A stretch of DNA of 46,741 bases from the IMG/VR virus record IMGVR_UViG_3300030397_000530, positions 1 to 46,741 of that record; one strand, given 5' to 3'. The DNA comes from a virus (taxonomy: Duplodnaviria > Caudoviricetes). Shown here piece after piece: positions 24,215 to 46,741 of the stretch. The notes below the pieces were generated by a model. The model was not told the origin of the DNA, did no database searches, and worked only from the letters and a program-made list of their open reading frames with translations. Position 1 is the first letter of the stretch, and every line of letters starts with the position of its first letter. The translations under genes were made by a program, and so were the position numbers.

Positions 24215-24964
24215 ATGAAAAGCACCAAAAATACCAAGCTAATAGAGAGCAGGTATAAACACAAAACCAAGTTATATATTTTCCTGATCTCCGCTGCACT
24301 AGCCTCTGTTAACTACCTTTTAGCTGTCATTTTTAGTGATGGACACGCTAAGGTTTACTTATTTGTAACCTGGCAGCTATTCTGGTGGTTCATGTACAGC
24401 TACTCCAAACACTTGATCAAAGACGGTATTATTCCACAAAAGACACCTACCCGGATATTTGCTATCGGTATTTCCATAAATGCCGCATTTCTGGCAGTAG
24501 GGCAGTTGATAACCAGGTGGCTAACAGATCTGCGTTTTGCTGATCCATTTTGGAAGATATTCGCCTCTGATATGGTGGCGGCCGTTTTGATCGGAGGCAT
24601 TTACTTTTACTTTAGAACACACCAGCACAATGCCAAACGCAGGAAACAGGAAATGAAAACCTATGAGGTATTAGGGAAGCGGTTGGTACTGAATCTGCGG
24701 AGTATGGAGAATTGGTCATCGATCCGGCTTGAATCAGAATACCTCTACCCAGGACTGATTGATGAAATAAAAAAAAATGGTGATTTTCCAGATATATACA
24801 TCCGTATGATCGTATATAATAAATTTGATTTCTCAGCGGCTAAAATTATGCAGATAGAAGGGATTACTCGACAAACAATGAGAAAACGGAATGAGCGAAT
24901 GAGAGACAAGGTAAGGCAGGAAACAGGCATGGAGTTGTCAGATTTCTTGCAAAAACTCGGTTAG
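24215..24964 (+). CDS. Membrane-anchored transcriptional regulator (4 TM plus LuxR-like HTH)
   Basis: Four hydrophobic helices, then FSAAKIMQIEGITRQTMRKRNERMRDKV, resembling Bacteroidota C-terminal LuxR-type HTH domains. Confidence 0.6.
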   Translation: MKSTKNTKLIESRYKHKTKLYIFLISAALASVNYLLAVIFSDGHAKVYLFVTWQLFWWFMYSYSKHLIKDGIIPQKTPTRIFAIGISINAAFLAVGQLITRWLTDLRFADPFWKIFASDMVAAVLIGGIYFYFRTHQHNAKRRKQEMKTYEVLGKRLVLNLRSMENWSSIRLESEYLYPGLIDEIKKNGDFPDIYIRMIVYNKFDFSAAKIMQIEGITRQTMRKRNERMRDKVRQETGMELSDFLQKLG

Positions 24965-25040
24965 TCACGCAATGTCACGGTCTGGTCACGATTTGTCACG
25001 GCTTGTCACGCAATGTCACAACCCGGTCACACAGGGTCAC
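24964..25040 (+). repeat. Eight helically phased GTCAC direct repeats
   Basis: GTCAC starts at 24964, 24974, 24985, 24995, 25005, 25015, 25026 and 25036. Confidence 0.92.
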
Positions 25041-25144
25041 AAAGATTTAATAGAAAAAGAAATGAACTATTGACATAAGGGTGATATGTGCATAAATTAT
25101 TAATTGTCACCTATTAACAAACCAAAACAACAGGGGGGGGAGAT

Positions 25145-25318
25145 ATGGAAAAAATAGAAACAGAAATAGAAGCAGAGAACCACACTAAACCACACGCTCT
25201 CGAAACTATCAATTCTCTTGAATTAATAATCAAAGACTTGAAGCTGCAAGAAAAGAAGCTAATAGACGAGATCAGACAGACTACTGAGTTGCTGAATCAG
25301 AAGCTGCAAGCGAAGTGA
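25145..25318 (+). CDS. Small coiled-coil protein (57 aa, below the ORF-track cutoff)
   Basis: MEKIETEIEAENHTKPHALETINSLELIIKDLKLQEKKLIDEIRQTTELLNQKLQAK; A-rich leader. Confidence 0.5.
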   Translation: MEKIETEIEAENHTKPHALETINSLELIIKDLKLQEKKLIDEIRQTTELLNQKLQAK

Positions 25319-26060
25319 TCAACTCTGCAAGCCGGTAGCACTCTGCTATCGCTTGTTTGTCACCACTACGCAGTGTGATGTCATGATAGTATTTATCGCC
25401 CGTAAAGCGAACCTTAATCGTCTTATCGACATTGCTGGAGATAGCGCGGAGGATTGCCTTTTCGTTTTCATAGGTAATCACCTCCCAAACTTTACCGCCT
25501 TCGTTTTCTCGCCTGTTGTTGTCATTGTACGACGGCACTGTTGCGCTTTGGTATTTGTCCTCACCGATCAACACTGTGATCTTGGTATGAAACAACCAAT
25601 CGTCTGCATGGTAGTTGCTGTTCAACCACGCATACCCGGAGGAATTAACGCCAGCGGTCAGGGTGGTGCGGTTAGGCCAGTAGTTACCCCAGCGTTTGTG
25701 GTTGTAAAATCCAATATCCTGGAATTCATCTTTTTTGTAGGTGAATTTTGCTTTGAGCTGGTCGAATTCTTTTTGATTAGCTTTTCGCTGCTCCGCTTTC
25801 TCTGCCTTTACCTGAGCAATCTGCCCCCGGATCACCTGGTCAACCGAATCCGCAAATGGTATTTTTCTTTCGGGATCTGCTTTGGCAAGCTGCAAATAAA
25901 GACTATCTGTCGGAATGGTGATACCTGCTGCCTTTGCGTCCGTAACTGCTTTGACCAGGATTGAAGATGCGCTATCCTGTAATATGCGGCTGGCTTTTGA
26001 TTGTTCACTTTCAGAACAGGCGAGACAAAGGAGTAAAGGAATCCAAAAGAGGTTTTTCAT
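25281..26060 (-). CDS. Lipoprotein, possibly lysogenic conversion or superinfection exclusion
   Basis: MKNLFWIPLLLCLA-C lipobox; lies downstream of the repressor gene. Confidence 0.7.
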   Translation of the reverse strand: MKNLFWIPLLLCLACSESEQSKASRILQDSASSILVKAVTDAKAAGITIPTDSLYLQLAKADPERKIPFADSVDQVIRGQIAQVKAEKAEQRKANQKEFDQLKAKFTYKKDEFQDIGFYNHKRWGNYWPNRTTLTAGVNSSGYAWLNSNYHADDWLFHTKITVLIGEDKYQSATVPSYNDNNRRENEGGKVWEVITYENEKAILRAISSNVDKTIKVRFTGDKYYHDITLRSGDKQAIAECYRLAELITSLAASDSATQ

Positions 26061-26074
26061 GATGCAGGGGAATT

Positions 26075-26112
26075 AAAAACCTCCTACCTAAAAACGACAA
26101 TAAGTAGGAGGT
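26075..26112 (-). terminator. Terminator-like hairpin after the repressor gene
   Basis: ACCTCCTAC (26079-87) / GTAGGAGGT (26104-12) stem, with a T-run on the minus strand. Confidence 0.55.
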
Positions 26113-26130
26113 GGTATAGCACGAAAAAAT

Positions 26131-26475
26131 TTATTGACTATCTAGCTTGTGTAATATCAAATTCAGAGTATTCTTTATCTCTGCTAAATCAAAAATAGAT
26201 TTCTTTAGTTGCTCAACCTCTTCTTTCAGGGCTTTGATCTGTGCCTGTGCATCAAAAACCGAGTTGTTCTCCTGGGCTTCTTCTGGCAGAAATAGAGAAT
26301 AAGCACTCGCCAATCGATTCAATTCACCCTCCTGTACTTTCTTAACCCTGCCTGTGTTAATATTCTTTAGTCGCTGCTCGTCTATTCCGATCCGATTAGA
26401 AATGGCATGATAGGAGACTCCTTCTGTACCATTGATGATTCCAAGGTATTCAATAAATTTTTCGCTGTTACTCAC
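26131..26475 (-). CDS. CI-like HTH repressor without peptidase domain
   Basis: VSYHAISNRIGIDEQRLKNINTGR HTH plus a C-terminal coiled coil; divergent from the early rightward operon. Confidence 0.75.
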   Translation of the reverse strand: MSNSEKFIEYLGIINGTEGVSYHAISNRIGIDEQRLKNINTGRVKKVQEGELNRLASAYSLFLPEEAQENNSVFDAQAQIKALKEEVEQLKKSIFDLAEIKNTLNLILHKLDSQ

Positions 26476-27352: not shown

Positions 27353-28309
27353 ATGACAAAAGTAAATAATAATCAACAAAAGGGCAAGATGTCAGCAGTT
27401 CAGAAACTGGTCAGCAGTAAGAAGGATTTAGCGGAAAAAATGGAACAGGCCGGAATGCAGCCGAAAGCCATTTTTAGGGAAATCTCTTTTGCTCTTCAAT
27501 TGGTTAATCAGGATCAGCAGTTGCAAAAATGCACTCCCGTTAGTTTGCAAAGCGCTGTGGTTAATATCGCCAATATCGGATTAACACTGAATCCGGCAGC
27601 ACAAGAGGCGGCACTGATTGCCCGTTACAATGGCAGGACCAGGCAACTGGAGGCTCAACTGATGCCGCAATATAGAGGACTTGCAAAGCTCGCCTGTCAA
27701 AATTCAAACGTAGTTGATATTACTTGCAATGTGGTTTTTGATAAGGATGAATTTTCTCTGGACCTTGCCAATACTGATAAGCCGGTAACGCACAAACCAT
27801 ATCTGAAAAAAGATCGCGGCGAGATATACGGAGCTTATGCCATTGCAACTGATGCGAACGGATTGAAAAAGGTTGAATGGATGCCGATTGAAGATATTGA
27901 GCAGGCCCGTAATTGCAGCGATGGATTCAAAGCATTTCAGAGCAAGAAAATCAAATCTACTCCCTGGCATGATTGGTTCCCTGAGATGGCAAGAAAGAGT
28001 GTCTTGAAAAGGATCATCAAGTATATCTCCGGCACAACTGAAAATGAGGAATTGTCAACAGCAGTACAGCTGGATAATGAGGATTACCCGGCTGATGCTA
28101 ATCAGATGATGTACATCGATCATTTGCTCAGAACAGCTAATATCTCAGACGAAGAAAACAACCGGATTTACAGTACTTCAAGCATGAGCAGATCAGAGGC
28201 AACTGAGACAATCAAATACCTGAAAGCAAATCAACTCGAAGGAGTCCGCTATAATGGAGGCGGCAGCATGAAGGAAATAGGCGATAGTGTTGAAAATGCA
28301 GTCAAGTGA
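27353..28309 (+). CDS. recT: RecT-family single-strand annealing protein
   Basis: GLTLNP...AALI, YRGLAKLA, V...DEF, GAYA, PW..WFPEMARKSVLKR motifs. Confidence 0.88.
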   Translation: MTKVNNNQQKGKMSAVQKLVSSKKDLAEKMEQAGMQPKAIFREISFALQLVNQDQQLQKCTPVSLQSAVVNIANIGLTLNPAAQEAALIARYNGRTRQLEAQLMPQYRGLAKLACQNSNVVDITCNVVFDKDEFSLDLANTDKPVTHKPYLKKDRGEIYGAYAIATDANGLKKVEWMPIEDIEQARNCSDGFKAFQSKKIKSTPWHDWFPEMARKSVLKRIIKYISGTTENEELSTAVQLDNEDYPADANQMMYIDHLLRTANISDEENNRIYSTSSMSRSEATETIKYLKANQLEGVRYNGGGSMKEIGDSVENAVK

Positions 28310-28794
28310 AAGACCTAATTCTTACATACACAGGTAAAGTTGAGAACGGCCAAGTATTTGGTCCACGTACCAAGCAACGATTCAGAGCAGAGGTCGGCAG
28401 GGCCTTTGAAGGCAAGCGGATCGAAATTACTGTACAGCGAAAAAAGAAGCGCAGGAGTCCGGAACAGAATCGATACTATTGGGGATTGGTGTTGAATATT
28501 TTATCTCACCAATTCAAAGAGTGGAATCCTGATCTGGAGATTACAACCGATATAGTCCATGAATGGTGCAAAGAGCGTTTTTTACCAATGATTTCCGATT
28601 GGGAGGATGTGAAGATAAAAACGCCGGAAGGAGAAAAGGAAATCCGTAAAACTACTACGCGGATGACTACAGTTCAGTTCATGGATTATATCGCTTTGAT
28701 TCAGCAGTTTGCAGCAGAGTATGGCTTTTATATTCCGGATCCGGATGAGTGGGAATTTGAGAGCGTGGAGGCTATTGATATCGATGCACACTAG
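28306..28794 (+). CDS. NinB/Orf-like recombination accessory protein
   Basis: RSPEQNRYYWG and TT.MT..QF.DYI..IQ.FAAEYG..IP motifs. Confidence 0.75.
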   Translation: MKDLILTYTGKVENGQVFGPRTKQRFRAEVGRAFEGKRIEITVQRKKKRRSPEQNRYYWGLVLNILSHQFKEWNPDLEITTDIVHEWCKERFLPMISDWEDVKIKTPEGEKEIRKTTTRMTTVQFMDYIALIQQFAAEYGFYIPDPDEWEFESVEAIDIDAH

Positions 28795-28818
28795 GTAGTA
28801 ACTAACACTTTATGATCC

Positions 28819-28905
28819 ATGAATACAGGAATACTAGTGCTGATACTGGCCTTTCTTTGGCTGATCGCACGACCACGAAAAACACAGATCAAAAGAGATC
28901 TGTAA
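28819..28905 (+). CDS. 28-aa hydrophobic peptide
   Basis: MNTGILVLILAFLWLIARPRKTQIKRDL: one TM segment and a basic tail. Confidence 0.5.
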   Translation: MNTGILVLILAFLWLIARPRKTQIKRDL

Positions 28906-28919
28906 GTGTTGCAGATGAT

Positions 28920-29270
28920 TGCAGGGCCCGGTTAGACTTCCGGGCTTAATTTGAATGATTTTCGTTTTTTCATATAGGTTTAATGATTGATTCCGGCTGC
29001 AAGGTCGCGCAGCCGGTTTTCTTTGAAAAGGTTACCAGGGTTTATTTTTTCATGTGCAAATTGATTGAAGTTTTTGGGGTTTACCGTCCGGTCACTGAGG
29101 CCGGACCTTTTCAAAGAAAGAGAGGTTATAGGTAATAGGGTTTAAGCATGTTTCTAGCCGGGCTTTTGTGATTGGATCGGCCCGGCTTTATTTGAAAAGT
29201 TGGTTTTCGTTTGATACTCACCAGGGGCGCAATTATTTTCTCTCGGTTAGGGAATTGCCCCTGGTTAATT
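28920..29270 (+). ncRNA. Hairpin-spacer array R (five GC hairpins), putative sRNA array
   Basis: Hairpins at 28924-47, 28993-29016, 29086-106, 29156-87 and 29220-65, separated by U/G-rich spacers. Four are followed by TT..GAA. Confidence 0.55.
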
Positions 29271-29295
29271 TTCTAACGGCTTTAAACAAAACATC

Positions 29296-29496
29296 ATGAA
29301 CGAAAAGGATTTGCAACTACTGGAAGATGCCAGAATGGAAGCCTGGCACAAAGGCGACAAAGAAGAGTTTGATACCCTCGGCAAAGAGGGTAAGCGATTA
29401 GAGGATGAAGATATTGAACCCAAGTATGGACCGCAGCCAGACAGATCAGATTGTCCAGCATACAAAAGCGGATGTTGGGGTATTAATTGCTGTTAA
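29296..29496 (+). CDS. Hypothetical protein
   Basis: 66 aa with Cys-rich end; A-rich leader. Confidence 0.6.
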   Translation: MNEKDLQLLEDARMEAWHKGDKEEFDTLGKEGKRLEDEDIEPKYGPQPDRSDCPAYKSGCWGINCC

Positions 29497-29517
29497 TTAA
29501 CTGGTCGGAAACATACT

Positions 29518-29739
29518 ATGCTATTAATAAGAATTAAGAATACAGTAGAGATCAAAGGAAGGCGAAACCTCAAGGAGTCCATAGGCGAGGCTATTTGGTT
29601 TTGCAAAATATTTGAATGCAATGCTGTACTGATTTGGGGGCTGAATGAGGAATACAAGTTCCCGATTACCAAAGAATCAAGAGTTGAAGAAATACAGGAA
29701 TTGGCGCATAAAGAATTTAATAAATCAAGGCTCAAATAG
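29518..29739 (+). CDS. Cassette hypothetical protein
   Basis: 73 aa, bounded by GGTCG sites. Confidence 0.6.
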   Translation: MLLIRIKNTVEIKGRRNLKESIGEAIWFCKIFECNAVLIWGLNEEYKFPITKESRVEEIQELAHKEFNKSRLK

Positions 29740-29756
29740 GGTCGAAATAGTGTAAC

Positions 29757-29969
29757 ATGAAAAAGCTAAAGTATAAGAAAATGAAGCGGCTTTTTTTCAG
29801 CAACAGGAAGAAGTTTGAAAAAAAGATTAAGAAATATTACAAGAACTCAGATAGGAGATATGAAGAAACTTTTCAGAATGAAGGGGAAAAGGAAATTTGG
29901 GTTGTGACTAATGGACATTGTTATTCATTAAAAGAAGTTTGTAAGGTGTATGTCCCAATATTTTTTTAA
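29757..29969 (+). CDS. Cassette hypothetical protein (Lys-rich)
   Basis: 70 aa, bounded by GGTCG sites. Confidence 0.6.
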   Translation: MKKLKYKKMKRLFFSNRKKFEKKIKKYYKNSDRRYEETFQNEGEKEIWVVTNGHCYSLKEVCKVYVPIFF

Positions 29970-29988
29970 CGGTCGAAATTCCGAAATT

Positions 29989-30114
29989 ATGGAAAACTTA
30001 TTAATCAAGTACGCTATAATGCTGTCCAGTAGTCCAAAAAAGGACTACAAAGAAGTACTTCGACTATTAAGAGAATTGGAGAAAAAAATTAAATCACAGA
30101 AGACCGCAGAATAG
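29989..30114 (+). CDS. Cassette hypothetical protein (41 aa)
   Basis: MENLLIKYAIMLSSSPKKDYKEVLRLLRELEKKIKSQKTAE fills the space between two GGTCG sites. Confidence 0.55.
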   Translation: MENLLIKYAIMLSSSPKKDYKEVLRLLRELEKKIKSQKTAE

Positions 30115-30264
30115 CGGTCGGTTTGATAGCATGATAATTCATTATTAAGTATAGCCACAGGCGGCTTAAGGGCTTTCGGATAAATGACCAGCCCGGATGT
30201 AAGAAGACAATCAGAGTAACCAGATCGAAAGGGATGCCGCCGCCTTTTCGGTCGATTTAGCAGC

Positions 30265-30432
30265 ATGGAAAAAGAGGAATTAATACAGGTAATAACAGAA
30301 CTCAGGGTCTTACACGACTGCAAAGATAGCCTAACAGAACACGGAGAGTCTGAATATATTAGGCTGAAAGAATTATTACTTGATCACTTGTTAGACCTCA
30401 AAGAATTAATTAACCAACCGGCCCAGTCATAG
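30265..30432 (+). CDS. Cassette hypothetical protein (55 aa)
   Basis: MEKEELIQVITELRVLHDCK...NQPAQS fills the space between two GGTCG sites. Confidence 0.55.
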   Translation: MEKEELIQVITELRVLHDCKDSLTEHGESEYIRLKELLLDHLLDLKELINQPAQS

Positions 30433-30531
30433 GGTCGAATTAAGAAGTAGACCTTTGCGCCACCAACTCGGGCGACATTGGGCGGTGGGTGGAAGCCCCA
30501 CACTTTTTTAACGGTTGTTAAACTAACTGAT

Positions 30532-30729
30532 ATGATTTTCGATTGCTTTGAAGGTAAATTAGGGAAAACCATAATTATAATGGAAGATGCAGCCATTATC
30601 CTTTATGTACATGATGACAAGAGAATACAGCAGCCAGAAGGAAAGCCAGTTAATGTTGAGTTGATAAAATTAGCTTGTATTATATGCGAGAACTTTGATT
30701 TTTGGTGGATAAGATTGCAGATTTTATAA
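30532..30729 (+). CDS. Cassette hypothetical protein (65 aa)
   Basis: ATG at 30532 follows TAACGGTTG; the ORF ends at TAACGGTCG. Confidence 0.55.
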   Translation: MIFDCFEGKLGKTIIIMEDAAIILYVHDDKRIQQPEGKPVNVELIKLACIICENFDFWWIRLQIL

Positions 30730-30800
30730 CGGTCGGTTAAATAACCACCAGAACACCCAAAGCTCACAAGAGATCGCACCTAAAACCACAAAAGACACAC

Positions 30801-30864
30801 TATTAGAAAAAGGTTAACCTTGATAATTTTAAGAAATATTAAAGTGTAATGGCTTTTGTGTAAT
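30801..30864 (+). repeat. res-like direct repeat, copy A
   Basis: 57/64 identical to 41144-41207, which lies directly upstream of the resolvase gene. Confidence 0.9.
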
Positions 30865-31031
30865 GCGCACAATTAAACCATTGAAAATCAGAGGCGCTAC
30901 AATTTGACCAGATCCAGGCACTCTTCCCAAATCCTCCCTGCCTGGATTTACAACAACAGGTGAATTTTTGACTTAACCGGCTATGAGTCGGAATGAAATT
31001 GATTTGTAAAAACTGAAAAACATTTAAGGGA

Positions 31032-31400
31032 ATGAAGATTACACAATACAGTAATGATGAGGCGACCTACACTTTTAGGGTCAACCTTATTGATTTTCCA
31101 GCAACCAGGAGAAAAAAGCCTGGTGTGTACCAAATAGATAACGTCTACATAGGCGCATCAAAAAGCATAATACCAAGAATAAATTCACACTTGAGGGCTG
31201 CTGTGAACGAAACTCACGACAACTCTAGGTTGGGCACATACCTTAAAGATAGGATTAGCAAAAACGATGTAATTGATGTCAAACTCCTTTGCGACGATCC
31301 GTTTAAAGAGTCCAATTACATACAGGCGTTAAACCCTCCTTTGAATGGCAAAGAGCAACACCTGCTTTATCATAGCCATCCAAAAACAAAAAACAAATAA
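31032..31400 (+). CDS. GIY-YIG nuclease domain protein
   Basis: PGVYQI...YIGAS....R...H...E..YI....P.LN. Confidence 0.8.
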   Translation: MKITQYSNDEATYTFRVNLIDFPATRRKKPGVYQIDNVYIGASKSIIPRINSHLRAAVNETHDNSRLGTYLKDRISKNDVIDVKLLCDDPFKESNYIQALNPPLNGKEQHLLYHSHPKTKNK

Positions 31401-31405
31401 ACGCC

Positions 31406-32302
31406 ATGAATACACTAAAGAAAATCTTATCCAGGTTAGTCGGAAATGCCAACACGCTATCCAATAACGTTCTGTTTATTGACTTCACCGGATCACACGA
31501 AAAAGGCCAGTATTTGAGCCAGTTATTTTACTGGAGCGGGAAGACCAAAATGAAGGATGGTTTTTTCGCCAAAAGCTATGCCGATTGGTACGAAGAAATC
31601 CGAATAAAAGAACATAGTATCAGGAGATACACGAAGGAATTTAAGTCATTCGGCTGGCTCGAAACAAAGGTTGTGAAATTCAATAAAGTGCCAACTCTGC
31701 ACTACAAATTAGACCAGGATAAATTAATCACTGCACTGGTGACATTTTGCGATACTGACAATTTGCGACCCTCACACGGTGCAAGGGTGGACCCTGACAA
31801 TTTGCAAGGGTCCAGGGAACCTGACACTGTGCAAGGGTCCATTAACAGAGACTTACATAGATTACATACAGAGAGAGAACGCGCGCACGAAAAAGAAAAT
31901 AATATCCAACCTAAACAAAATAATAACCCTCCAAAAGTTGCGCTAAAAGGTTCCCTGGATATTAACCCGCTGAAATACGAATCCACCGCGATCTTTTTTG
32001 CCAATCAATTACAAAAGACTTTCCCGACATCCATCAAGGAGCTACAAAACATAGTCGGCGGTAAAATCGGAGAGCATATCAAATCCTATTTCCGGAACCT
32101 ACAGAAAAAGGACGAATGGTATCAATTACAGGAACCAGACGAATCCAGGATGAATTCATGGATCTCCAAGCACTATGCCGGAGTAGAAATGTGGCTAAAG
32201 AATGAAAAGAAGTTTTGGCCAACCAAAGAAGATAAAAACAAAGTCAGATACGAAGCACCAAAAAATGTTTTCACTGCTGATCAGTTGAAAAAATCCGCAT
32301 GA
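31406..32302 (+). CDS. Replication initiator (lambda O-like, winged helix)
   Basis: LSQLFYWS...DGFFAKSY..W.EE HTH; internal iterons; directly upstream of DnaB. Confidence 0.8.
   Translation: MNTLKKILSRLVGNANTLSNNVLFIDFTGSHEKGQYLSQLFYWSGKTKMKDGFFAKSYADWYEEIRIKEHSIRRYTKEFKSFGWLETKVVKFNKVPTLHYKLDQDKLITALVTFCDTDNLRPSHGARVDPDNLQGSREPDTVQGSINRDLHRLHTERERAHEKENNIQPKQNNNPPKVALKGSLDINPLKYESTAIFFANQLQKTFPTSIKELQNIVGGKIGEHIKSYFRNLQKKDEWYQLQEPDESRMNSWISKHYAGVEMWLKNEKKFWPTKEDKNKVRYEAPKNVFTADQLKKSA
31739..31930 (+). other. Putative origin of replication (iterons plus A-rich tract)
   Basis: TGACAnnnTGC(AAGGGTCC)-like repeats at about 31740, 31756, 31772, 31795 and 31822 inside the initiator gene, followed by an A-rich tract at 31890-31930. 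Confidence 0.7.
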
Positions 32303-37999: not shown

Positions 38000-38215
38000 A
38001 AGGATACAAAACGGATACACAAAAAATAAAAACCGTTGTAACTAATTGATAAACAGGCAGGTAAAAAAGAGACACTAAGTTATAGTTTAACTTTTTCAGC
38101 GAGTTTTAACGGTTTGGTTTTGGCAACGCAAAGTATTGTTTTGCGTAGGATTAGGAGAGGGGTTTTCCAAAAGTAGCCAGAAGCGAACATAAAAACGGAT
38201 ACATTTTGGATACAC
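38000..38215. other. Putative intact attP
   Basis: Paired GGATACA arm-type repeats at 38002/38013 and 38197/38208. IHF-consensus site on the minus strand at 38039-51. Candidate core AAGTTA-N5-TAACTT at 38077-93. Confidence 0.7.
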
Positions 38216-38251: not shown

Positions 38252-39451
38252 ATGCGAACATTGCGACACTCTTTTAAGTTCAACCGAAGGAAAAAGCAAC
38301 TTAAATCAGGCCAATCCGCTTCAGTGGAAATTGAAATGCGGTATAGATCTGAGCGGAAATGGAGGAGCATAGGAATATCGCTTGAGTCGCACCAGTGGGA
38401 TGTAAAGAACGAAAGAGTGATCAAGCACGAATTGGAAAGAGAATACAATGTCAGGCTAAACGAGATTCGATTGAAAGCAGATCGATTTTTCATGGACTGC
38501 CAAAATTCCGGCAGTCGGTTTAGTTTGACTGCCTTAATCGATCACTTAGAAGGAAATAAAACTGGATTAACATTAACCGGGTATATGTGGCAGGAATTGG
38601 AGATTATGAATATCTCAGCCGGAACACACCTGGTTTATTCATCTTTGATCCGAAAACTGGAGCAATACAAAGAAGTGCTTTTATCTGATGTGGATTACAC
38701 CTTTACTGCCCAATTGGAAAACTGGCTACTTGCTAGGAAGTCAGGGAGAGAAAGCAAGACGCTCCAACAAAGTACAGTTAGCAAGGACTTGGGCTACCTA
38801 AAGAGCTTTCTGAAAAAAGCAGTGCAGCGCGGATTGTTAGATAAAAACCCTTTTGATATTCACAAGATCAAGCGAGTTAAGAAACATCAGGAAGGATTGA
38901 CTAGAGAGGAATTAACAGCGATTGAGCAGGTTGAGTTAATCAATCAGGTAGAAATGTTCATCCGGGATGCGTTTTTGTTCATGTGTTATTCCAGCTTCCG
39001 TTTCTCCGATGTGCTAGATCTGGAGCATGGAGTAAAGGTAAAGCATCTGAAGATCAAGGCCGGTCAAAGATGGCTGATTAAGGAGAGTAAGAAAACAGGC
39101 GTGTCATACAAAGTGCCGGTTGATGATACTTTTGGCGGAGCGAAATTTCTGATTGATCGATACATTGAGGGCAAGAGTAAAGAGGACTTTATTTTCAAGC
39201 CCTACAATAACCGCAACTTTAACAAAGGGTTGAAGGCTGTCAAAGAAAAAGCTGGAATTGAAAGAAATATTACTGCTCACATTGGCCGACACACTTTCGG
39301 AATGCTGGTTTTAGAAAAGCCAGATGTTAAACTTTCGGATCTGAAAGTCATGATGGGGCATAAGTCCCTGGAGAGTACGCAGAAATATTCCAGGGCCACA
39401 GAAAGGAGTATAGGGGATAAGATGAGGAAAGCGAATAAGAAAATAGGGTAA
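38252..39451 (+). CDS. int: Tyrosine integrase (Bacteroidota type)
   Basis: N-terminal arm-binding domain, SAM-like domain, catalytic R (FRFSD), K (KKTG), HIGRHTF, GH, TQKY. Confidence 0.93.
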   Translation: MRTLRHSFKFNRRKKQLKSGQSASVEIEMRYRSERKWRSIGISLESHQWDVKNERVIKHELEREYNVRLNEIRLKADRFFMDCQNSGSRFSLTALIDHLEGNKTGLTLTGYMWQELEIMNISAGTHLVYSSLIRKLEQYKEVLLSDVDYTFTAQLENWLLARKSGRESKTLQQSTVSKDLGYLKSFLKKAVQRGLLDKNPFDIHKIKRVKKHQEGLTREELTAIEQVELINQVEMFIRDAFLFMCYSSFRFSDVLDLEHGVKVKHLKIKAGQRWLIKESKKTGVSYKVPVDDTFGGAKFLIDRYIEGKSKEDFIFKPYNNRNFNKGLKAVKEKAGIERNITAHIGRHTFGMLVLEKPDVKLSDLKVMMGHKSLESTQKYSRATERSIGDKMRKANKKIG

Positions 39452-39481
39452 TTTTTTAACTGGTCGAGATACTAAAGAACC

Positions 39482-39571
39482 ATGGATAAAGCAATGCTAT
39501 TAATATTGGGCTTCGCTCTTTACGGTCACGCCCGAATGTTTATAGAACTTTTCAACCAAGATCGCAGGTAA
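39482..39571 (+). CDS. Cassette peptide (29 aa, hydrophobic)
   Basis: MDKAMLLILGFALYGHARMFIELFNQDRR, between two GGTCG sites. Confidence 0.45.
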   Translation: MDKAMLLILGFALYGHARMFIELFNQDRR

Positions 39572-39805
39572 AGCGGTCGCTTAAAAGACAGAAACCCAAT
39601 GTAAAACAGAACCGGGGAAAGGAACGGCGTTGGCCGTTGTGAGTTGTACCCGGTGGCCGTCTTGTGTTTCCAAAATGAGGATAACCGACCCATTTAAACC
39701 TTTACAATTGATTTGAACTAGTGAAAAACGGAAGTGGTCCGGCGCAAGCTTAAAAATGGTTACTAAGTAGCGTTTGGCAATATGTCATTTATCTAAACTT
39801 GCATA

Positions 39806-40015
39806 ATGAAAATTTTAAATTCAAAAGTTCCCGGTTTCGTGGGCGAATGTTCGCCAACTTGGATAAATTACAATCAAGTTGACCATAGGATAGACGGCGG
39901 TATAACTGGATTTTTCAAACTGGTTAAAAAGGTTTGGATTTTTAAGGTTAAAACCGGCAAAGAGTTCCACGGGATCATAAAAAACGGAATTGTTGAAACA
40001 ACCGAAGGGCGTTAA
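39806..40015 (+). CDS. Hypothetical protein
   Basis: 69-aa ORF. Confidence 0.5.
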   Translation: MKILNSKVPGFVGECSPTWINYNQVDHRIDGGITGFFKLVKKVWIFKVKTGKEFHGIIKNGIVETTEGR

Positions 40016-40059
40016 ACGCCCCTATTGACTTAAAACAACAACCTTTAAAACTTAAAAGC

Positions 40060-40503
40060 ATGAACCACGCAAAATTTAAAGAAATAAAGAATTTCCTAGC
40101 TGAAAAGGTAGCCCCTTTAAGCTTTGAGGACTTCAATAAATTGGTAATTGAAGACGACAATTTTAAAAAGGCCATGGGGTCAATTTGGAAATCAATAAGG
40201 GATTTCGAGATAAAAGGCAAACGGGCTATTGTTAGGACCGCCGAACGCGAAAACAACGCCAAGTATGTTTATGAAGGTGCCGAACTGGAAATAATAGGCG
40301 TTTATATGATTTGCCCCGCCTTTCCAGACGACGAACATGGCCCCGGAAGCCCGGAACACGTCCAATATAAACTAAGCTTGGTTGGTACCAAGTTTGAAGA
40401 AACACAAGGCAAATATACAGTAATCGCCGACTATGATTTAGAATTTATTAACGGATCACCGAGCGAAGAGATTATAAGCAAACACCACGCCGCGCTTAGT
40501 TAA
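40060..40503 (+). CDS. Hypothetical protein
   Basis: 147-aa ORF with A-rich leader, ending at TAAGCGGTCG. Confidence 0.7.
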   Translation: MNHAKFKEIKNFLAEKVAPLSFEDFNKLVIEDDNFKKAMGSIWKSIRDFEIKGKRAIVRTAERENNAKYVYEGAELEIIGVYMICPAFPDDEHGPGSPEHVQYKLSLVGTKFEETQGKYTVIADYDLEFINGSPSEEIISKHHAALS

Positions 40504-40515
40504 GCGGTCGAAAAA

Positions 40516-41124
40516 TTAAGAGGCTTCATCCGACCTCTTTTTCTTTTCCTTCAATTTTTCCTCATACCAGTGCAAGTGTTTATAGTAGGTAGTAGTTGAG
40601 CCGATCTTTAACATCTCCATGACTTCTTTGACGGTATATTCCCCAGTGTGATGCAAGGCATGTAATTGAACCGCTCTGACCTGGTTGCGCCTGGTAATCC
40701 CTTTTGGCCTCCCGATCACCATGCCTTTCTTCCTGGCTGCTTCCAAGCCTCCCTTTGTCCGCTCCACAATTAACTCTCGTTCAAACTCAGCCAACGCAGC
40801 CAGAATGGTAAATACCAACTTTCCGATTGCGGAGCTGGTGTCAATGCTTTCAGTCAGTGAAATAAATTCGATTTTCTCTTTCTGGAAATAAGTGATTAAT
40901 TCAATCAGGTGTTTTACCGACCTTCCGATCCGGGATAGCTTGACCACTACCACAGTATCACCAGGGCGCAACATCTCCAACATTCGGTTCAATCCGCTTC
41001 GATTAGTCTTTGCTCCACTGGCAATATCTTTGAAAATACGATCGCAGCCATATTTCTCCAACTGCATTTCTTGTCTACCAAAATCCTGTGATTCAGTAGA
41101 GATCCGCATATATCCAAACCTCAT
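40516..41124 (-). CDS. Small serine recombinase (resolvase/invertase)
   Basis: GYMRIST..Q...RQ, D.ASG...R.GL, GDTVVV.KL.RIGR, LAEFERELI.ERT..G...AR..G...GRP, plus C-terminal HTH. Confidence 0.95.
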   Translation of the reverse strand: MRFGYMRISTESQDFGRQEMQLEKYGCDRIFKDIASGAKTNRSGLNRMLEMLRPGDTVVVVKLSRIGRSVKHLIELITYFQKEKIEFISLTESIDTSSAIGKLVFTILAALAEFERELIVERTKGGLEAARKKGMVIGRPKGITRRNQVRAVQLHALHHTGEYTVKEVMEMLKIGSTTTYYKHLHWYEEKLKEKKKRSDEAS

Positions 41125-41143
41125 GTTTTAGTATTTCATAGCG

Positions 41144-41254
41144 TATTAGAAAAAGGTCAAGTTAGCGAATTTTAAGAAATATTAAAGTGTAATGACTTTT
41201 GTGTAATCTGATCCAAAAAGGGTAAAATTGCACCATTACGGATAATTTCGTAAC
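41144..41254. promoter_or_regulatory. res-like site, copy B, overlapping the resolvase and late promoters
   Basis: 41144-41207 repeats copy A; an extra inverted repeat, ATTACG..CGTAAC, lies at 41235-54. The site begins 20 nt upstream of the resolvase ATG. Confidence 0.65.
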
Positions 41255-41258
41255 TTGC
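41228..41258 (+). promoter_or_regulatory. Putative late-operon promoter
   Basis: TTG at 41228 and TAACTTGC at 41251-58 resemble the Bacteroidota -33/-7 consensus. Confidence 0.45.
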
Positions 41259-41266
41259 AACCTCAC

Positions 41267-41309
41267 AAAAAGTCATATCTCTGTCTTCGGGCAGGGTATG
41301 ACTTTTTTT
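41267..41309 (+). terminator. Strong intrinsic terminator in the late-operon leader
   Basis: AAAAAGTCATATCTCTGTC-TTCG-GGCAGGGTATGACTTTTTTT: long stem, cUUCGg loop and U7 tail. Confidence 0.8.
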
Positions 41310-41322: not shown

Positions 41323-41718
41323 ATGATTTTGAAAACACTATCAGGAAACACTAAAAATAATACTGCACAAAGCAGATCGCTATCCTCTGGCGATCAGAAG
41401 TTCTGTAATTCGCGAAGATGGCGAAAGACTTCTGTTGACTATCGCAAAGAGAAGCCGCTTTGCGAAAACTGCCTTAACAAAGACCGCGCTACACCCTCAC
41501 ACGTAACTGATCATATTATTCCCGAATCTCAAGGCGGCTCAAAATTTGATCCAGATAACCACATGGCATTATGTGACAGCAGAGGTGGCTCATCCTGGAA
41601 ATGCCATGATCGAAAAAGAGGCATGGAGAAGAATCAGCCGATTGTTGCGTACAAAGAAAACAAGGACGGTGAATTAATTCCAATAAACAGAGAAGATGTA
41701 TTTAATGTACTCCCATGA
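41323..41718 (+). CDS. HNH endonuclease (terminase-associated, HK97 gp74-like)
   Basis: RRWRK.S......PLCENC......VTDHIIP...GG..FD..N..ALC...CH..K. Confidence 0.88.
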   Translation: MILKTLSGNTKNNTAQSRSLSSGDQKFCNSRRWRKTSVDYRKEKPLCENCLNKDRATPSHVTDHIIPESQGGSKFDPDNHMALCDSRGGSSWKCHDRKRGMEKNQPIVAYKENKDGELIPINREDVFNVLP

Positions 41719-42437
41719 AAATATTACTACTGATAGCAGCATGGCAGCGACATGAAACTGCTCGGATAACCTACCAGCAATTAATGCAGGTAGAAACAGA
41801 ATGGAATAATCTAGGCATTACACTCATTCCGCTTGTAATTTGCAGCAACTCAGAAGATGCTGCTCTGGCTAATTCGTTCGGGTTCATCACCTATTATCAC
41901 AAAAACTCACCACTTGGCGAAAAGATGAATGCAGGGCTGAAAAGAGCCCTAGAATTCAAGTGTGACTACATCATGCAGCTAGGTAGCGATGATCTGTTAG
42001 ATGCAAACCTCATTAATTTCTATTTAGATCCCTTGCTTAGAAAGTCGCCTTTCTTTGGCCTTTCATCTCTGTATTTCTATGATCAACAAGGCGACCGGCT
42101 AAAGGAATTGCAATTAACAAATGTTATTGGGGCAGGACGGTGTATAAGGCGTGACATTTGCGAATTTATGTCTGAGAATTTCGGCCTGTGGTATTACAGG
42201 ACTGAAAAGGGATTAGATAATGACAGCGAGGCCCGCATTTATGACTTCATGGGGTTTGAGCAACATAGAGTGCAATATATCAAAACACCAACTCCGATGA
42301 TCCTGGACATCAAAGATGGTGAAAATCTGCATTCTTTTGATGATTGGGGATCAGCCAATGGAGAGCAGCAGCGAATGATTGAGGGAGGCGAAAAAGCAGG
42401 GGTATTAAGAAGATTTGGAATGAACAAAGGCGAATGA
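41715..42437 (+). CDS. Glycosyltransferase, GT-A fold
   Basis: LIAAWQR, PLGEKMNAGL, YIMQLGSDDL, GAGR and GLD motifs. Confidence 0.72.
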   Translation: MKILLLIAAWQRHETARITYQQLMQVETEWNNLGITLIPLVICSNSEDAALANSFGFITYYHKNSPLGEKMNAGLKRALEFKCDYIMQLGSDDLLDANLINFYLDPLLRKSPFFGLSSLYFYDQQGDRLKELQLTNVIGAGRCIRRDICEFMSENFGLWYYRTEKGLDNDSEARIYDFMGFEQHRVQYIKTPTPMILDIKDGENLHSFDDWGSANGEQQRMIEGGEKAGVLRRFGMNKGE

Positions 42438-43024
42438 TAAAAGTCATCGGAACTGGATCTGGCCGCTGTGGAACAACTAGCCTTGCGGAATTACTGGATA
42501 AACAACCATGTATTGTGTCATGCACACATGAGTTATTCCGGTTTAATATTCCCTATCCTGGTAGCCAGAGCAGTAAAGCGCAGGGAAATGCCTTAGCAAA
42601 AGCAATGATAGAAAACGAAGGATGCGACGTGGCCCTGCAATGGCTCTGGTATGCTTCGATCTTTATCAATGCTGGCTACAAGATTATTTGCCTACAGCGC
42701 AACAAACGGGAAACGATTAAATCATTTGAGCGCAAATTAACTCCATTTGCCTACAATCATTTTAGCGAAAAGGACGGCAACCCCTCGCCCTGGGATCAGT
42801 GCTTTCCAAAGTTCAAAGAAAGGACACTCAAGGTAGGGGTTAACAAATACTACGACATGTTTTATTTCCAGGCTAGATTTCTGGCAAGACAATCTGATCG
42901 GTTCAGGATATTCGATAGCTCAAAGGTTCTGAATAATGCTGAAGCACAAAAAGAAATGCTGAACTGGATTGGTATTGAAGATCCGGTAATTGATACAGGG
43001 ATAAGAAAAAACGCATTGGCATGA
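42434..43024 (+). CDS. Sulfotransferase-like P-loop protein
   Basis: KVIGTGSGRCGTTSL..LL (5'-PSB loop), HE, IICLQR...TIKS (3'-PB). Confidence 0.75.
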   Translation: MIKVIGTGSGRCGTTSLAELLDKQPCIVSCTHELFRFNIPYPGSQSSKAQGNALAKAMIENEGCDVALQWLWYASIFINAGYKIICLQRNKRETIKSFERKLTPFAYNHFSEKDGNPSPWDQCFPKFKERTLKVGVNKYYDMFYFQARFLARQSDRFRIFDSSKVLNNAEAQKEMLNWIGIEDPVIDTGIRKNALA

Positions 43025-43743
43025 ATTACGCATTTGCCATAACCACCTTTTTAAGACCGAACAGCTTTAAAAACTGCCTGGAATCGGTTCGAGAATTCTA
43101 TCCGGATATTCCGATATACGTAGCTGATGATAGCGACGATCAAAGCTATCATGATAATCCGGACTATGAACTGATCTCGCTGCCATTTAATCAGGGAATC
43201 AGCGTAAAGCGAAATGTAATTGCACAACAGGCCAAAGAAGATATACTGATTTATTTCGACGATGATTTTGCATTAGATGATAAAGAAGCTATTGAAAAAC
43301 TGATTACTCCAGTTTGGTTAGATCAGTGCGATTTATGTGCCGGCAGTGTGGCGAATAACGGCGAGAAAGTAAAATACGAAGGTCGATTCTATCAAAATGG
43401 CAATACGTTGGAAGTCCAGGCAGAGGCAACGCATATCAAAACAAACTACCTGGAAACGGACCTGGTGCAAAACTTCTTCGCTGCAAAACGGTCTACATTG
43501 CTCCTCAATGCGTGGGATGACGATTTAAAGATTGGAGAACACATTTTTTTCTTTCATGACGCCTGGAAAACCGGAATGCGTGTCTGGTGGTGCAATGATT
43601 CTGTTATCCCACATGTGCAGGAAGAAAATGCCAGATACATGATGTTTAGAGACACATTCCGAAAATATCAATTAGAAGGCATGAAGAAAAGAGGCATAAG
43701 CGAATTAATAAACCATATTAACGGATCAAATATAAAGCTATGA
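43021..43743 (+). CDS. Glycosyltransferase family 2
   Basis: ITTFLRP...CLES, IYVADDS, GIS.KRN, YFDDDF, NFF, WD..LK.GEH..FF. Confidence 0.88.
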   Translation: MNYAFAITTFLRPNSFKNCLESVREFYPDIPIYVADDSDDQSYHDNPDYELISLPFNQGISVKRNVIAQQAKEDILIYFDDDFALDDKEAIEKLITPVWLDQCDLCAGSVANNGEKVKYEGRFYQNGNTLEVQAEATHIKTNYLETDLVQNFFAAKRSTLLLNAWDDDLKIGEHIFFFHDAWKTGMRVWWCNDSVIPHVQEENARYMMFRDTFRKYQLEGMKKRGISELINHINGSNIKL

Positions 43744-44111
43744 GCTATCGGCAGTATGTAGACAAGGGTAAAGAAACCGACCTGAGCAGCATTGTTGTTC
43801 CAAGCGAAGCTGTCAATGTGTTGTATAACAGAAACCAAACAATTGGCTCTGCATTTGTAAACAGGGACTCAACCGGCATAATGGCTGAGATTAATCTGAA
43901 TGAAATACCCTCTAATGCGGAGCTGTACCCTGTTATAATTGTGCAGCACAATCGCCTAGTGTCGATAAGCCTGAATCCTGAGCGAAATGCAGACCGGACA
44001 ATCAAGGCAATTCAGTTTGTGACGAGCGACGTGATTGAAAAGGAGATCGCGAAAGATGTTCTGAGTGGATTCGAGACATTCGGTAGTGCTATTTTAAGCG
44101 AAGAAGAGTAA
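43740..44111 (+). CDS. Hypothetical protein
   Basis: 123 aa; ATGA overlap with the upstream stop. Confidence 0.65.
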   Translation: MSYRQYVDKGKETDLSSIVVPSEAVNVLYNRNQTIGSAFVNRDSTGIMAEINLNEIPSNAELYPVIIVQHNRLVSISLNPERNADRTIKAIQFVTSDVIEKEIAKDVLSGFETFGSAILSEEE

Positions 44112-44115
44112 GGCT

Positions 44116-44316
44116 ATGCTTAATTCCCCAAACTTTAAAATATCATTTTCTAACCGCATGGGTCTTGCTGTGCGTAGGGCGTCTTACTCGCTAGTAGAAC
44201 TTTCTATCGCGATTTACTTAATAGATAATAATTACGAATCAGCTCTTAATCGAATTCCTGACCTTATAGAAAATTATGTTGATTTGAAGATTTTAGAATT
44301 GAATCAAGATGAATAG
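44116..44316 (+). CDS. Hypothetical protein
   Basis: 66 aa, operonic spacing. Confidence 0.5.
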   Translation: MLNSPNFKISFSNRMGLAVRRASYSLVELSIAIYLIDNNYESALNRIPDLIENYVDLKILELNQDE

Positions 44317-44842
44317 ACGCAGCTTTATAAATAGATCATTATTAGCTGGATTTGGAGCAATGCTACTAACGCCAAATGTAGCAAAGACCCTTGCTATTAA
44401 AAAGAATGCACCAAAAGATCAGGTCAAGGTAATTGGTAATCTGATTGAATTTAATGCCGATTGGCAGGTAAAAATATCCGAGCATTTAGTATTCAAATCA
44501 GATCAGTGTTCCGATTATTATTTCTCCCATCAAAGCCACCGCTGTCGGTACTCAATAGATAAGAACACAGAGATTAAAAAGATACCTGTTAATAGCATAG
44601 ACAAGGTAAGGCTGATCGAGGGCGAGGCAAGGATTATTGATAGTGGCTTTATTTTGGATACCAAAACCTGTTTCCGCTTAGTGGACAACCAAGAACTCAC
44701 GACATTGAAGCTCAATACAATTCATGGCAAATCTCTGGTTTTTGATGCCTACATGACTTCATTGAGCGTTACAGTAGGATCTGGGCAATTTGCGGAAAAA
44801 GATTTAGAGTTTGTAATTACAGGCGCAATACAACTAATGTAA
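44309..44842 (+). CDS. Twin-arginine signal protein with tail-tube-like C-terminus
   Basis: MNRRSFINRSLLAGFGAMLL Tat motif; C-terminal FDAYMTSLSVTVGSGQFAEKDLEFVITGAI. Confidence 0.6.
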   Translation: MNRRSFINRSLLAGFGAMLLTPNVAKTLAIKKNAPKDQVKVIGNLIEFNADWQVKISEHLVFKSDQCSDYYFSHQSHRCRYSIDKNTEIKKIPVNSIDKVRLIEGEARIIDSGFILDTKTCFRLVDNQELTTLKLNTIHGKSLVFDAYMTSLSVTVGSGQFAEKDLEFVITGAIQLM

Positions 44843-44854
44843 AAATACAAAGCT

Positions 44855-45810: not shown

Positions 45811-45812
45811 AC

Positions 45813-46010: not shown

Positions 46011-46017
46011 GACGCAA

Positions 46018-46724: not shown

Positions 46725-46741
46725 GATCGTGACTGGGAAAC
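46725..46741 (-). other. Random-amplification (SISPA / Round A-B) primer artefact
   Basis: GATCGTGACTGGGAAAC is the exact reverse complement of primer GTTTCCCAGTCACGATC and forms the contig end. Confidence 0.92.

What the first reader, a model, noticed from the sequence alone, without database searches (positions are those of the whole stretch)
29497..30735. Integron-like run of mini-cassettes delimited by a stop+GGTCG mini-palindrome
Seen: every junction in this 1.2-kb stretch carries GGTCG (29503, 29740, 29971, 30116, 30250, 30433, 30731; GGTTG at 30513). By base composition only about one per 2 kb would be expected. It follows TAA/TAG almost directly and usually lies 10-14 nt before the next ATG. 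It is often the right arm of a short inverted repeat with the stop in the spacer: GACCGC-agaata-GCGGTC, CGGCCC-agtcata-GGGTCG, GGCTC-aaata-GGGTC, GATTG..CGGTC. Units are unrelated 41-73-aa ORFs or non-coding segments. Established: integron cassettes are single genes bounded by palindromic sites, but these ~20-bp sites lack attC RYYYAAC/GTTRRRY boxes. Inference: an undescribed cassette capture or shuffling system, or alternatively an RNA-processing or translational-coupling signal.
Basis: partly seen in the sequence, partly recalled or inferred. Interest (0 to 1): 0.85.

Follow-up and report, generated by a model that had tools for sequence, protein, structure and literature searches.

The report
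Five-base joints between phage mini-genes
A temperate marine phage carries two rows of unrelated tiny genes in which the same five bases (GGTCG, once GGTTG), often closing a predicted small hairpin over the previous gene's stop codon, sit at the joints; they likely mark where single genes are swapped in and out, by an enzyme not yet identified.

Summary
GGTCG (once GGTTG) marks all eight joints at 29503-30731 and three more at 39462, 39575 and 40506, between the phage's tyrosine integrase and a Gin-like serine recombinase. It follows the stop of 8 of 78 plus-strand ORFs, all in these arrays (P 3e-5 after correction). Six of ten GGTCG sites close a stem of 5 bp or more with the upstream unit's end; five of these need G.T pairs on the coding strand (1.1 expected, P 2e-4). 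A relative in an independent metagenome has other DNA in place of array 1 and rejoins 6 nt after its last site; its replaced letters were not seen. The sites are not attC (RYYYAAC 0 of 12), not dyad recombinase sites, and too far from ATG for Shine-Dalgarno use. No second array with this motif was found in viral, metagenome or 400 Saprospiraceae sequences. Best reading (0.42): cassette joints recombined as folded single strands, attC-like in logic, enzyme unknown. Main rival (0.28): an RNA processing or coupling signal. The scan has noted junction-marked mini-gene arrays and Bacteroidota hairpin cassettes on other DNA, but not this motif.

The parts
29274..29282 (+). Degenerate first joint (TAAC GGCTT), 13 nt before the ATG of the 66-aa ORF
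   Evidence: read by eye as a decayed site, not among the top 35 matrix hits
29296..29496 (+). Unit 0: 66-aa orphan ORF
   Evidence: singleton cluster
29503..29507 (+). Joint GGTCG (after TTAACT; no upstream stem)
29518..29739 (+). Unit 1: 73-aa ORF; predicted fold like small phage proteins of unknown function
   Evidence: no sequence relative; TM 0.75-0.78 to 70-74-aa viral clusters
29730..29744 (+). Joint GGTCG (29740) closing GGCTC-aaata-GGGTC over the TAG stop
29757..29969 (+). Unit 2: 70-aa (or 62-aa) lysine-rich ORF
29967..29975 (+). Joint TAAC GGTCG (29971); no local stem, but 29966-29977 pairs at 10 of 12 positions with 30059-30070 inside the next ORF
29989..30114 (+). Unit 3: 41-aa ORF
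30102..30120 (+). Joint GGTCG (30116) closing the perfect stem GACCGC-agaata-GCGGTC over the TAG stop
   Evidence: z -3.47, 0 of 200 shuffles
30121..30249 (+). Unit 4: essentially non-coding (five-codon ORF, then GC-rich stems)
   Evidence: no Rfam match with E below 6
30223..30254 (+). Joint GGTCG (30250) closing an 11-bp wobble stem; no stop codon beside it
30265..30432 (+). Unit 5: 55-aa ORF
30420..30437 (+). Joint GGTCG (30433) closing GGCCC-agtcata-GGGTC over the TAG stop
30438..30512 (+). Unit 6: 80-nt non-coding, 54% GC, ends in a terminator-like hairpin and T run
30509..30523 (+). Variant joint TAAC GGTTG, overlapping GTTAAAC (fits GTTRRRY)
30532..30729 (+). Unit 7: 65-aa ORF, a real small protein family
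   Evidence: two relatives at 46% identity, 63-65 aa, aligned from Met1
30714..30742 (+). Terminal joint of array 1: GATTG...TAAC GGTCG (30731) GTTAAAT; closest to consensus; the relative rejoins at 30742
30801..30864 (+). 64-bp element, copy 1 (89% identical to copy 2), after array 1 and before the replication genes; promoter or recombinase-binding site, undecided
   Evidence: region kept in the relative, 11 differences over 30742-30968
38252..39451 (+). Tyrosine integrase with arm-binding and SAM domains; ordinary prophage type, not an integron integrase
   Evidence: TIGR02249 23 bits against cut-off 265; four GGATACA repeats at 38002-38214
39457..39466 (+). Array 2, first joint TAACT GGTCG (39462), 10 nt after the integrase stop
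39482..39571 (+). Array 2 unit: 29-aa ORF
39561..39579 (+). Joint GGTCG (39575) closing GATCGC-aggtaaa-GCGGTC over the TAA stop
39580..40503 (+). Array 2 unit: structured non-coding stretch with an inverted GGTCG at 39686-39690, then 69-aa and 147-aa orphan ORFs
40501..40510 (+). Terminal joint of array 2: TAAGC GGTCG (40506), 5 nt from the stop of the convergent serine recombinase; the relative reads CGGTCA here
40516..41124 (-). Small serine recombinase (resolvase/invertase), closest solved structure a DNA invertase
   Evidence: PF00239; 4m6f E 2e-42
41144..41207 (+). 64-bp element, copy 2, 19 nt upstream of the serine recombinase start and before the late genes

Best explanation
GGTCG sits at the joints of two accessory arrays and likely marks cassette boundaries, where single promoterless units would be added or swapped by site-specific recombination on a folded single strand, in the manner of a much shortened attC. 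Shown: the motif, its position at n+1 boundaries, and a predicted coding-strand stem whose 5' arm (GRYY, usually after AG) lies at the end of the upstream unit and whose 3' arm is GGTC. Inferred: each unit begins with GGTCG plus a 10-15-nt leader and ends at its stop; the arm on the incoming side has to stay invariant so that it still pairs with whichever unit lands upstream, as the downstream half of the attC R box does. The base just inside the arms changes together on both sides (G-C at four sites, C-G at two), as expected if both belong to the upstream unit and the cut lies at the 5' edge of GGTCG. The enzyme is not identified; a tyrosine recombinase (host integron-like enzyme, or the adjacent phage integrase) is my guess. 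Sites without a stem (T run plus AAC or AACT) would be decayed or of a second, unfolded type.
For: Motif after 8 of 78 plus-strand stops, all in the arrays. It also bounds non-coding units and both array ends, where no gene follows. The two terminal sites score highest in leave-one-out tests, 20.4 and 18.1 bits. Upstream stem of 5 bp or more at 6 of 10 sites against 2 of 26 other plus-strand GGTCG and 1.11 expected, P 1.9e-4; with bottom-strand wobble or Watson-Crick pairs only, 1 of 10: one strand folds and the loop varies, as for attC (bottom-strand structure, passages of bioRxiv 2022.09.11.507474). An independent relative (run X4) replaces 29239-30741 by 1,291 other letters and rejoins at 30742; its serine-recombinase piece matches from 40534 and keeps CGGTC at the 40506 site while array 2 has no cover. 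Phages with related RecT carry full attC-like hairpins that begin TAAC-GG (L087, L104), and Saprospiraceae carry integron-like loci (L371).
Against: No breakpoint is shown exactly at the motif: the relative rejoins 6 nt after it, not at its 5' edge as the model predicts; its left boundary (29238) is 35 nt before the degenerate first site; and module boundaries fall at gene ends anyway. It is one relative and its replaced letters were not seen. Four of ten sites have no upstream stem of 5 bp. G.U-rich coding-strand stems fit RNA at least as well as DNA. No second array with the motif: 0 of 10 and 0 of 34 hits of two-site patterns in viral contigs were arrays; the stop+GGTCG+ATG pattern is not enriched in five Saprospiraceae genomes, 31 matches against 42 for the reversed control. 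The phage encodes no integron integrase. No known recombinase is known to me (recalled) to use a 5-bp stem.
Confidence: 0.42

Rival explanations
1. RNA-level signal: the hairpin and GGUCG act on the polycistronic message, either as an endonuclease site that cuts it into single-gene and small non-coding RNAs, or as a coupling switch that the terminating ribosome opens.
For: All 11 sites are on the coding strand; the stem needs G.U pairs there; the stop lies in the loop at five sites; initiation in Bacteroidetes is tuned by mRNA structure and A at -3 (abstract of PMC6847099), and 7 of the 8 ATGs that follow a site have A at -3.
Against: Absent from all core-gene junctions, including the early operon around it. 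Four sites have no ATG within 20 nt, and one faces the 3' end of a convergent gene. Spacing of 10-15 nt is long for a Shine-Dalgarno element, which this phylum places near -8 and rarely uses; GGUCG matches neither anti-SD given in PMC7797042 (passages). Coupling alone would not need an invariant sequence.
Confidence: 0.28
2. Eroded integron-type cassettes: the joints are what is left of the attC-like TAAC-GG...GTTA hairpins common in Bacteroidota phages, or truncated attI-like ends, after loss of the hairpin body.
For: TAAC lies within 12 nt upstream at 6 of 12 sites and GTTRRRY follows 2 of 12. Unit 3 keeps a 105-nt imperfect inverted repeat starting at the site, 10 of 12 Watson-Crick pairs, 0 of 300 shuffles. 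Full hairpins starting TAAC-GG occur in related phages. Cassettes ending in truncated attI are known (abstract of PMC12901181).
Against: RYYYAAC 0 of 12; no attC-like fold in the arrays by two scans. The bases after AAC vary widely among the real hairpins, whereas GGTCG is fixed at 10 of 11 sites; ten independent erosions would not converge on it. The unit-3 repeat is 1 of 12 sites under three pairing rules.
Confidence: 0.15
3. Half-sites of the adjacent serine invertase: GGTCG is the strictly read part (positions 2-6) of one half of a crossover site, and units are captured at secondary sites; the 64-bp element is the accessory site.
For: The gene abuts array 2 and both arrays end upstream of the 64-bp element. 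In this family positions 2-6 are read strictly and 7-10 loosely, Gin has GG at 2-3, and the Tn3 half-site CGAAATATT resembles GGTCG+RWWW in another register (Table 1 and passages of PMC3985619).
Against: No mirror half-site at fixed spacing; the would-be central dinucleotide varies in both registers (columns); distance to the 64-bp element is 70 bp in one array and 638 bp in the other; 30 resolvase loci from Saprospiraceae and 80 from viral contigs show no such array.
Confidence: 0.08
4. Chance plus AT-rich intergenic context, with the array an ordinary hyperplastic region.
For: As a bare cluster GGTCG ranks only 24th; a distant relative has an accessory array after ninB with no GGTCG at its listed junctions (L389).
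Against: Stop-anchored enrichment P 3e-5 after correction, a second array, the strand-specific stem, and informative flanks: at most 7 of 58 other GGTCG score as high in flank-only leave-one-out tests.
Confidence: 0.03

Closest known systems
Integron gene cassettes and attC sites, including CALINs in phage genomes (PMC9892861, abstract and section 3.4 read; PMC9024848, passages read)
   Same: Promoterless single small ORFs in tandem; a site at every boundary that overlaps the stop; a one-strand fold with a degenerate outer arm pairing to an arm on the far side of the boundary.
   Different: No RYYYAAC box, no L boxes, stem of 5-6 bp with a loop of 5-12 nt instead of a long hairpin; the folding strand is the coding strand; invariant bases are GGTCG, not GTT; no IntI in the genome.
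PeSL cassettes of T4-type phages (PMC2839356, abstract and sections 13 and 16 read)
   Same: Repeated intergenic motif beside orphan ORFs in hyperplastic regions, with stem-loops near upstream stops; proposed to be the points of gene swapping.
   Different: PeSLs are about 100 bp, carry sigma70 promoters and terminators and can recombine by homology; here 5 fixed bases and about 20 weakly conserved ones, with no promoter excess (6 found, 5.6 expected).
Crossover sites of small serine recombinases (gix, hix, res, six; PMC3985619, passages and Table 1 read)
   Same: A Gin-like enzyme abuts array 2; five strictly kept bases with looser AT-rich flanks.
   Different: No dyad symmetry at fixed spacing and no constant central dinucleotide.
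DGR target-site hairpin (PMC3240598, passages read)
   Same: In Saprospiraceae several DGR-linked hairpins end in GCGGTCG followed by AT-rich bases (L371, L430, L431, L448, L459).
   Different: DGR hairpins are perfect 7-10-bp stems with a conserved short loop; these have wobble stems with stop-containing loops, and the phage has no reverse transcriptase hit. My search pattern imposed GGTCG, so its frequency there is untested.

Membership tests
Integron cassette array (attC/CALIN) | R'' box RYYYAAC at the gene end | tested here: not met
   0 of 12 sites; TAAC alone at 6 of 12
Integron cassette array (attC/CALIN) | R' box GTTRRRY closing the site | tested here: not met
   2 of 12 sites
Integron cassette array (attC/CALIN) | Long imperfect hairpin with R and L boxes, folded on the bottom strand | tested here: not met
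   own scans found none in the arrays while finding them in related phages; the IntegronFinder model itself was not available
Integron cassette array (attC/CALIN) | Integron integrase nearby (not needed for CALIN) | tested here: not met
   TIGR02249 23 bits, cut-off 265
Integron cassette array (attC/CALIN) | Tandem promoterless single ORFs in one orientation | tested here: met
   two units are non-coding and one holds two ORFs
Integron cassette array (attC/CALIN) | Excision and insertion of units at the site | not testable with these tools
   only contigs were laid; no joint skipping a single unit was listed
PeSL | Sigma70-like promoter within the repeat | tested here: not met
   6 found, 5.6 expected; the scan does not cover Bacteroidota promoters
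PeSL | Terminator-like stem-loop at each repeat | tested here: not met
   1 listed inside array 1 (30485-30501)
PeSL | About 100 bp of shared sequence | tested here: not met
   information falls to 1 bit or less outside the five core bases
PeSL | Gene gain and loss between relatives at the motif | tested here: inconclusive
   one relative rejoins 6 nt after the last site
Serine resolvase/invertase crossover site | Two inverted half-sites around a 2-bp centre | tested here: not met
   partner arms lie 5-22 nt away, variable
Serine resolvase/invertase crossover site | Same central dinucleotide among partners | tested here: not met
   read from the site alignment
Serine resolvase/invertase crossover site | Binding and recombination by the enzyme | not testable with these tools
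   needs purified protein
Shine-Dalgarno element | Complement of the host anti-SD near position -8 | tested here: not met
   10-15 nt from ATG, no ATG at four sites; no match to the two anti-SD types in PMC7797042; the host's own 16S end is unknown
DGR target hairpin | Perfect GC-rich stem with conserved short loop, with RT and template repeat | tested here: not met
   1 of 10 stems is perfect; no RT among 63 proteins scanned

The most novel reading that the evidence does not exclude
A phage-lineage cassette system with the smallest recombination site yet seen: a 15-20-nt hairpin built from a gene's last codons, its stop codon and an invariant GGTCG arm, folded on the coding strand and used by a dedicated or host recombinase to add and shuffle single mini-genes and small RNAs.
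Probability: 0.2. Interest if true: 0.85.

Novelty: new variant of a known kind. Interest (0 to 1): 0.52.

Why it matters
How phages stack unrelated mini-genes cleanly, stop to start, in their variable regions is an open question. Known answers need about 100 bp of homology (PeSL) or a long attC hairpin. A 5-base core with a 5-bp fold would be a far more compact joint, hidden from repeat finders and attC models, and easy to test with two oligonucleotide sites and three candidate enzymes. If it is an RNA signal instead, it would be a new processing or coupling element in a phylum that does not use Shine-Dalgarno pairing. The weight is limited by having one genome and one partly seen relative.

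Tried and rejected
Relatives: none close in viral contigs by NinB or RecT as single proteins or by the 64-bp element; none in metagenome contigs by the element; DnaB found nothing in genome contigs; the RecT alignment gave 80, 54 and 55 loci, long matches at most 48% identical, none with the array. DNA 28300-31400 against 401 Saprospiraceae genomes: 4 short chance matches; NinB 4 of 400 weak; DnaB 136 of 400 at 51-57%, taken as chromosomal copies without checking; 65-aa ORF profile 1 of 186, weak and with a stop; no match in cultured phages. Motif patterns: 3, 10 and 34 viral hits, read as chance or coding repeats; the two-site patterns cover only 30-nt ranges of unit length, so arrays of other sizes would be missed. 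No tRNA, no Rfam family. No PHROG, Pfam, PADLOC or NCBIfam hit for any array ORF scanned. No RNA holder listed. Downstream pairing of GGTC with RACC: 5 of 10 against 1.57 expected, P 0.003, 0 of 26 controls, but the 4-bp threshold was chosen after looking and it vanishes at 5 bp; left unexplained. The dip in contig depth over 28800-30981 in run X1 (71 against 232 and 202) may mean other variants co-occur but is no copy number. MITE or IS reading rejected: no target duplications, sites in direct order. Literature searches for a prior description (listings only) returned none on this motif; subscription papers and supplements were not seen.

Full report
Setting. The window is a whole 46,741-bp virus record: a temperate tailed phage with portal, protease, capsid, tail, RecT, NinB, replication initiator, DnaB, SSB, C5 methyltransferase, excisionase, tyrosine integrase and a small serine recombinase. 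The host is probably a Saprospiraceae: SSB is 64-78% identical to that of three genomes of the family against 58% and 43% for a Crocinitomicaceae and a Bacteroidales genome, and the best genome hit of RecT is a Saprospiraceae MAG. It is held in three aquatic runs that may be its source and, in part, in one coral metagenome of another study.

Observation. Seven in 1,239 nt compares with 0.30 in shuffles, 0 of 5,000 reaching 7, but as a bare cluster it ranks only 24th among 5-mers. Position decides it: GGTCG starts within 0-7 nt of the stop of 8 of 78 plus-strand ATG-ORFs and of 0 of 113 on the minus strand, P 3.4e-5 after multiplying by 1,024, against 92 of 10,161 ORFs in 194 other loci. In that control some other 5-mer reached 7 or 8 in 3 of 384 locus strands, so the count alone is rare, not unique; here six of the eight fall in 1.25 kb.

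Larger than reported. Three more sites lie at 39462, 39575 and 40506, between the integrase and the convergent serine recombinase, and a decayed site (TAAC GGCTT) precedes the 66-aa ORF at 29296. Units are 80-237 nt in array 1 and 113 and 931 nt in array 2. They hold ORFs of 29-147 aa or no ORF. None of the ORFs scanned has a family hit; those looked up exactly have no cluster member beyond this phage's own forms, and the 41-aa form is not in the collection. The 65-aa ORF has two relatives at 46% identity and equal length and the 73-aa ORF has structural look-alikes among small phage proteins, so at least some are real genes. Both arrays end upstream of a 64-bp element (30801, 41144; 89% identical). 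I first took it for a res site; it may as well be a promoter, since it precedes the replication and the late genes (a weak fit to the Bacteroidota promoter consensus, recalled, not tested).

Anatomy of the site. Outside the five core bases conservation is weak: W at -4 and -3, mostly C at -1, W at +3 and +4, a purine at +8 in 11 of 11. Flanks are still informative: in flank-only leave-one-out tests at most 7 of 58 other GGTCG score as high, and the two terminal sites are closest to consensus. Six of ten GGTCG sites close a stem of at least 5 bp with the end of the upstream unit (GGCTC, GACCGC, GATCGAAAGGG, GGCCC, GATTG, GATCGC; loops 5-12 nt), against 2 of 26 other plus-strand GGTCG and 1.11 expected from shuffled upstream sequence, P 1.9e-4. 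The stem exists only if G.T pairs are allowed on the coding strand: 1 of 10 with bottom-strand wobble or with Watson-Crick pairs alone. It is therefore a fold of one strand, RNA or single-stranded DNA, not a cruciform or a dyad site. Five of the six arms follow AG. The other sites follow an AT- or T-rich run and AAC or AACT; 40506 can form a stem with one bulge. A second, weaker pattern, RACC downstream at 5 of 10 sites, is unexplained.

Comparative evidence. Only one relative was within reach. In run X4 a 9,456-bp contig matches 28566-29238, has 1,291 other letters in place of 29239-30741, and rejoins at 30742, 6 nt after the last GGTCG; it then keeps 30742-30968 with 11 differences. Another X4 contig matches the serine recombinase and element from 40534 to 41309; its 30-letter loose end keeps CGGTC at the 40506 site, and the integrase and array 2 have no cover. 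So the arrays are the variable parts and their right borders lie close to the motif. This is weak: the left border is 35 nt short of the decayed site, the rejoining point is not the 5' edge that my model predicts, and borders fall at gene ends in any case. The replaced letters were not seen. All searches for other carriers failed. A distant phage with RecT and NinB also has small ORFs after ninB, with no GGTCG at the listed junctions (L389). The motif is so far confined to this lineage.

Mechanism. Shown: motif, position, one-strand stem, second array, variability of the arrays. Inferred: that the site is a recombination joint. [quoted passage not shown] The enzyme is open. The phage integrase looks like an ordinary prophage integrase with arm-type repeats. 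Saprospiraceae carry tyrosine recombinases followed by attC-like cassettes (L371), although none of five genomes passed the IntI cut-off. The RNA reading is nearly as good on the stem and cannot be excluded; a plain Shine-Dalgarno role can. Erosion from the longer TAAC-GG hairpins of related phages explains TAAC at half the sites and one long inverted repeat in unit 3, but not the fixed core. The serine enzyme's site rules (PMC3985619) are not met.

Known systems and novelty. It works, if the best reading holds, like an integron cassette array, but fails the attC box, hairpin and integrase tests, so it is not filed as one. It resembles PeSL shuffling (PMC2839356) in setting but not in size or content. 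Four literature searches (listings only) showed no description of the motif; no supplements were read. Earlier notes of this scan describe junction-marked mini-gene arrays with 19-32-nt joints and Bacteroidota hairpin-first cassettes on other genomes; they gave me two papers and the erosion rival, and are not evidence. Other papers seen: PMC3084882 and PMC3240598 and PMC7797042 (passages), PMC6847099 and PMC12901181 (abstracts).

Verdict. A real, non-random boundary motif of unknown chemistry in one phage lineage: new variant of junction-marked cassette arrays, interest 0.52; 0.85 if it proves to be a minimal hairpin recombination site (probability 0.2).

Noticed in passing
window 30801-30864 and 41144-41207: 64-bp direct repeat (89%) with two GTGTAAT copies, flanking a 10.3-kb replication-integration-recombinase block; both copies lie in stretches kept in the X4 relative. 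Promoter, operator or res site undecided.
   Followed up: partly
window 28884-29266: Non-coding leader between ninB and array 1 with several GC-rich hairpins followed by T-rich runs; kept with many indels in the X4 relative; only a sub-threshold Rfam hit (FopS, E 8.7).
   Followed up: partly
window 5614, 30956, 36569, 38235 (+); 18966, 22973 (-): Motif ACAGGTRAAT occurs six times, four of them 4-9 nt before an ATG; possibly a second initiation or operator signal.
   Followed up: no
window 30503: All three source runs have one more T in the T run before 30509; with it the 83-aa TTG-started frame is broken and the 65-aa ATG frame remains.
   Followed up: yes
window 39575-39690: GGTCG on the plus strand and GGTCG on the minus strand face each other across a 115-nt stretch that folds as a long imperfect hairpin.
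   Followed up: partly
window 38002-38214: Four GGATACA repeats in two pairs between excisionase and integrase: likely arm-type sites of attP.
   Followed up: no
window 24324-26200 (densest near 24958-25030): Cluster of GTCAC/TGTCAC repeats, the strongest 5-mer cluster in the genome; possibly operator or iteron-like.
   Followed up: no
L371 10200-13920 (minus strand; G296:C2): Tyrosine recombinase followed by an attC-like bounded unit holding a complete DGR (Lcl_C target, bAvd, RT); the hairpin after the target gene ends in GCGGTCG, as do several other DGR-linked hairpins in the family.
   Followed up: partly
L087, L089, L090, L096, L104, L403: attC-like hairpins of 50-135 nt scattered in phages with related RecT; several begin TAAC-GG in one orientation.
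   Followed up: partly
window 41715-46732: Run of glycosyltransferase- and sulfotransferase-like genes at the start of the late region.
   Followed up: no
window 30969-31916: The 122-aa ORF and the N-terminal part of the replication initiator are replaced by 711 other letters in the X4 relative, with no GGTCG at these borders: module exchange in this phage does not always use the motif.
   Followed up: no
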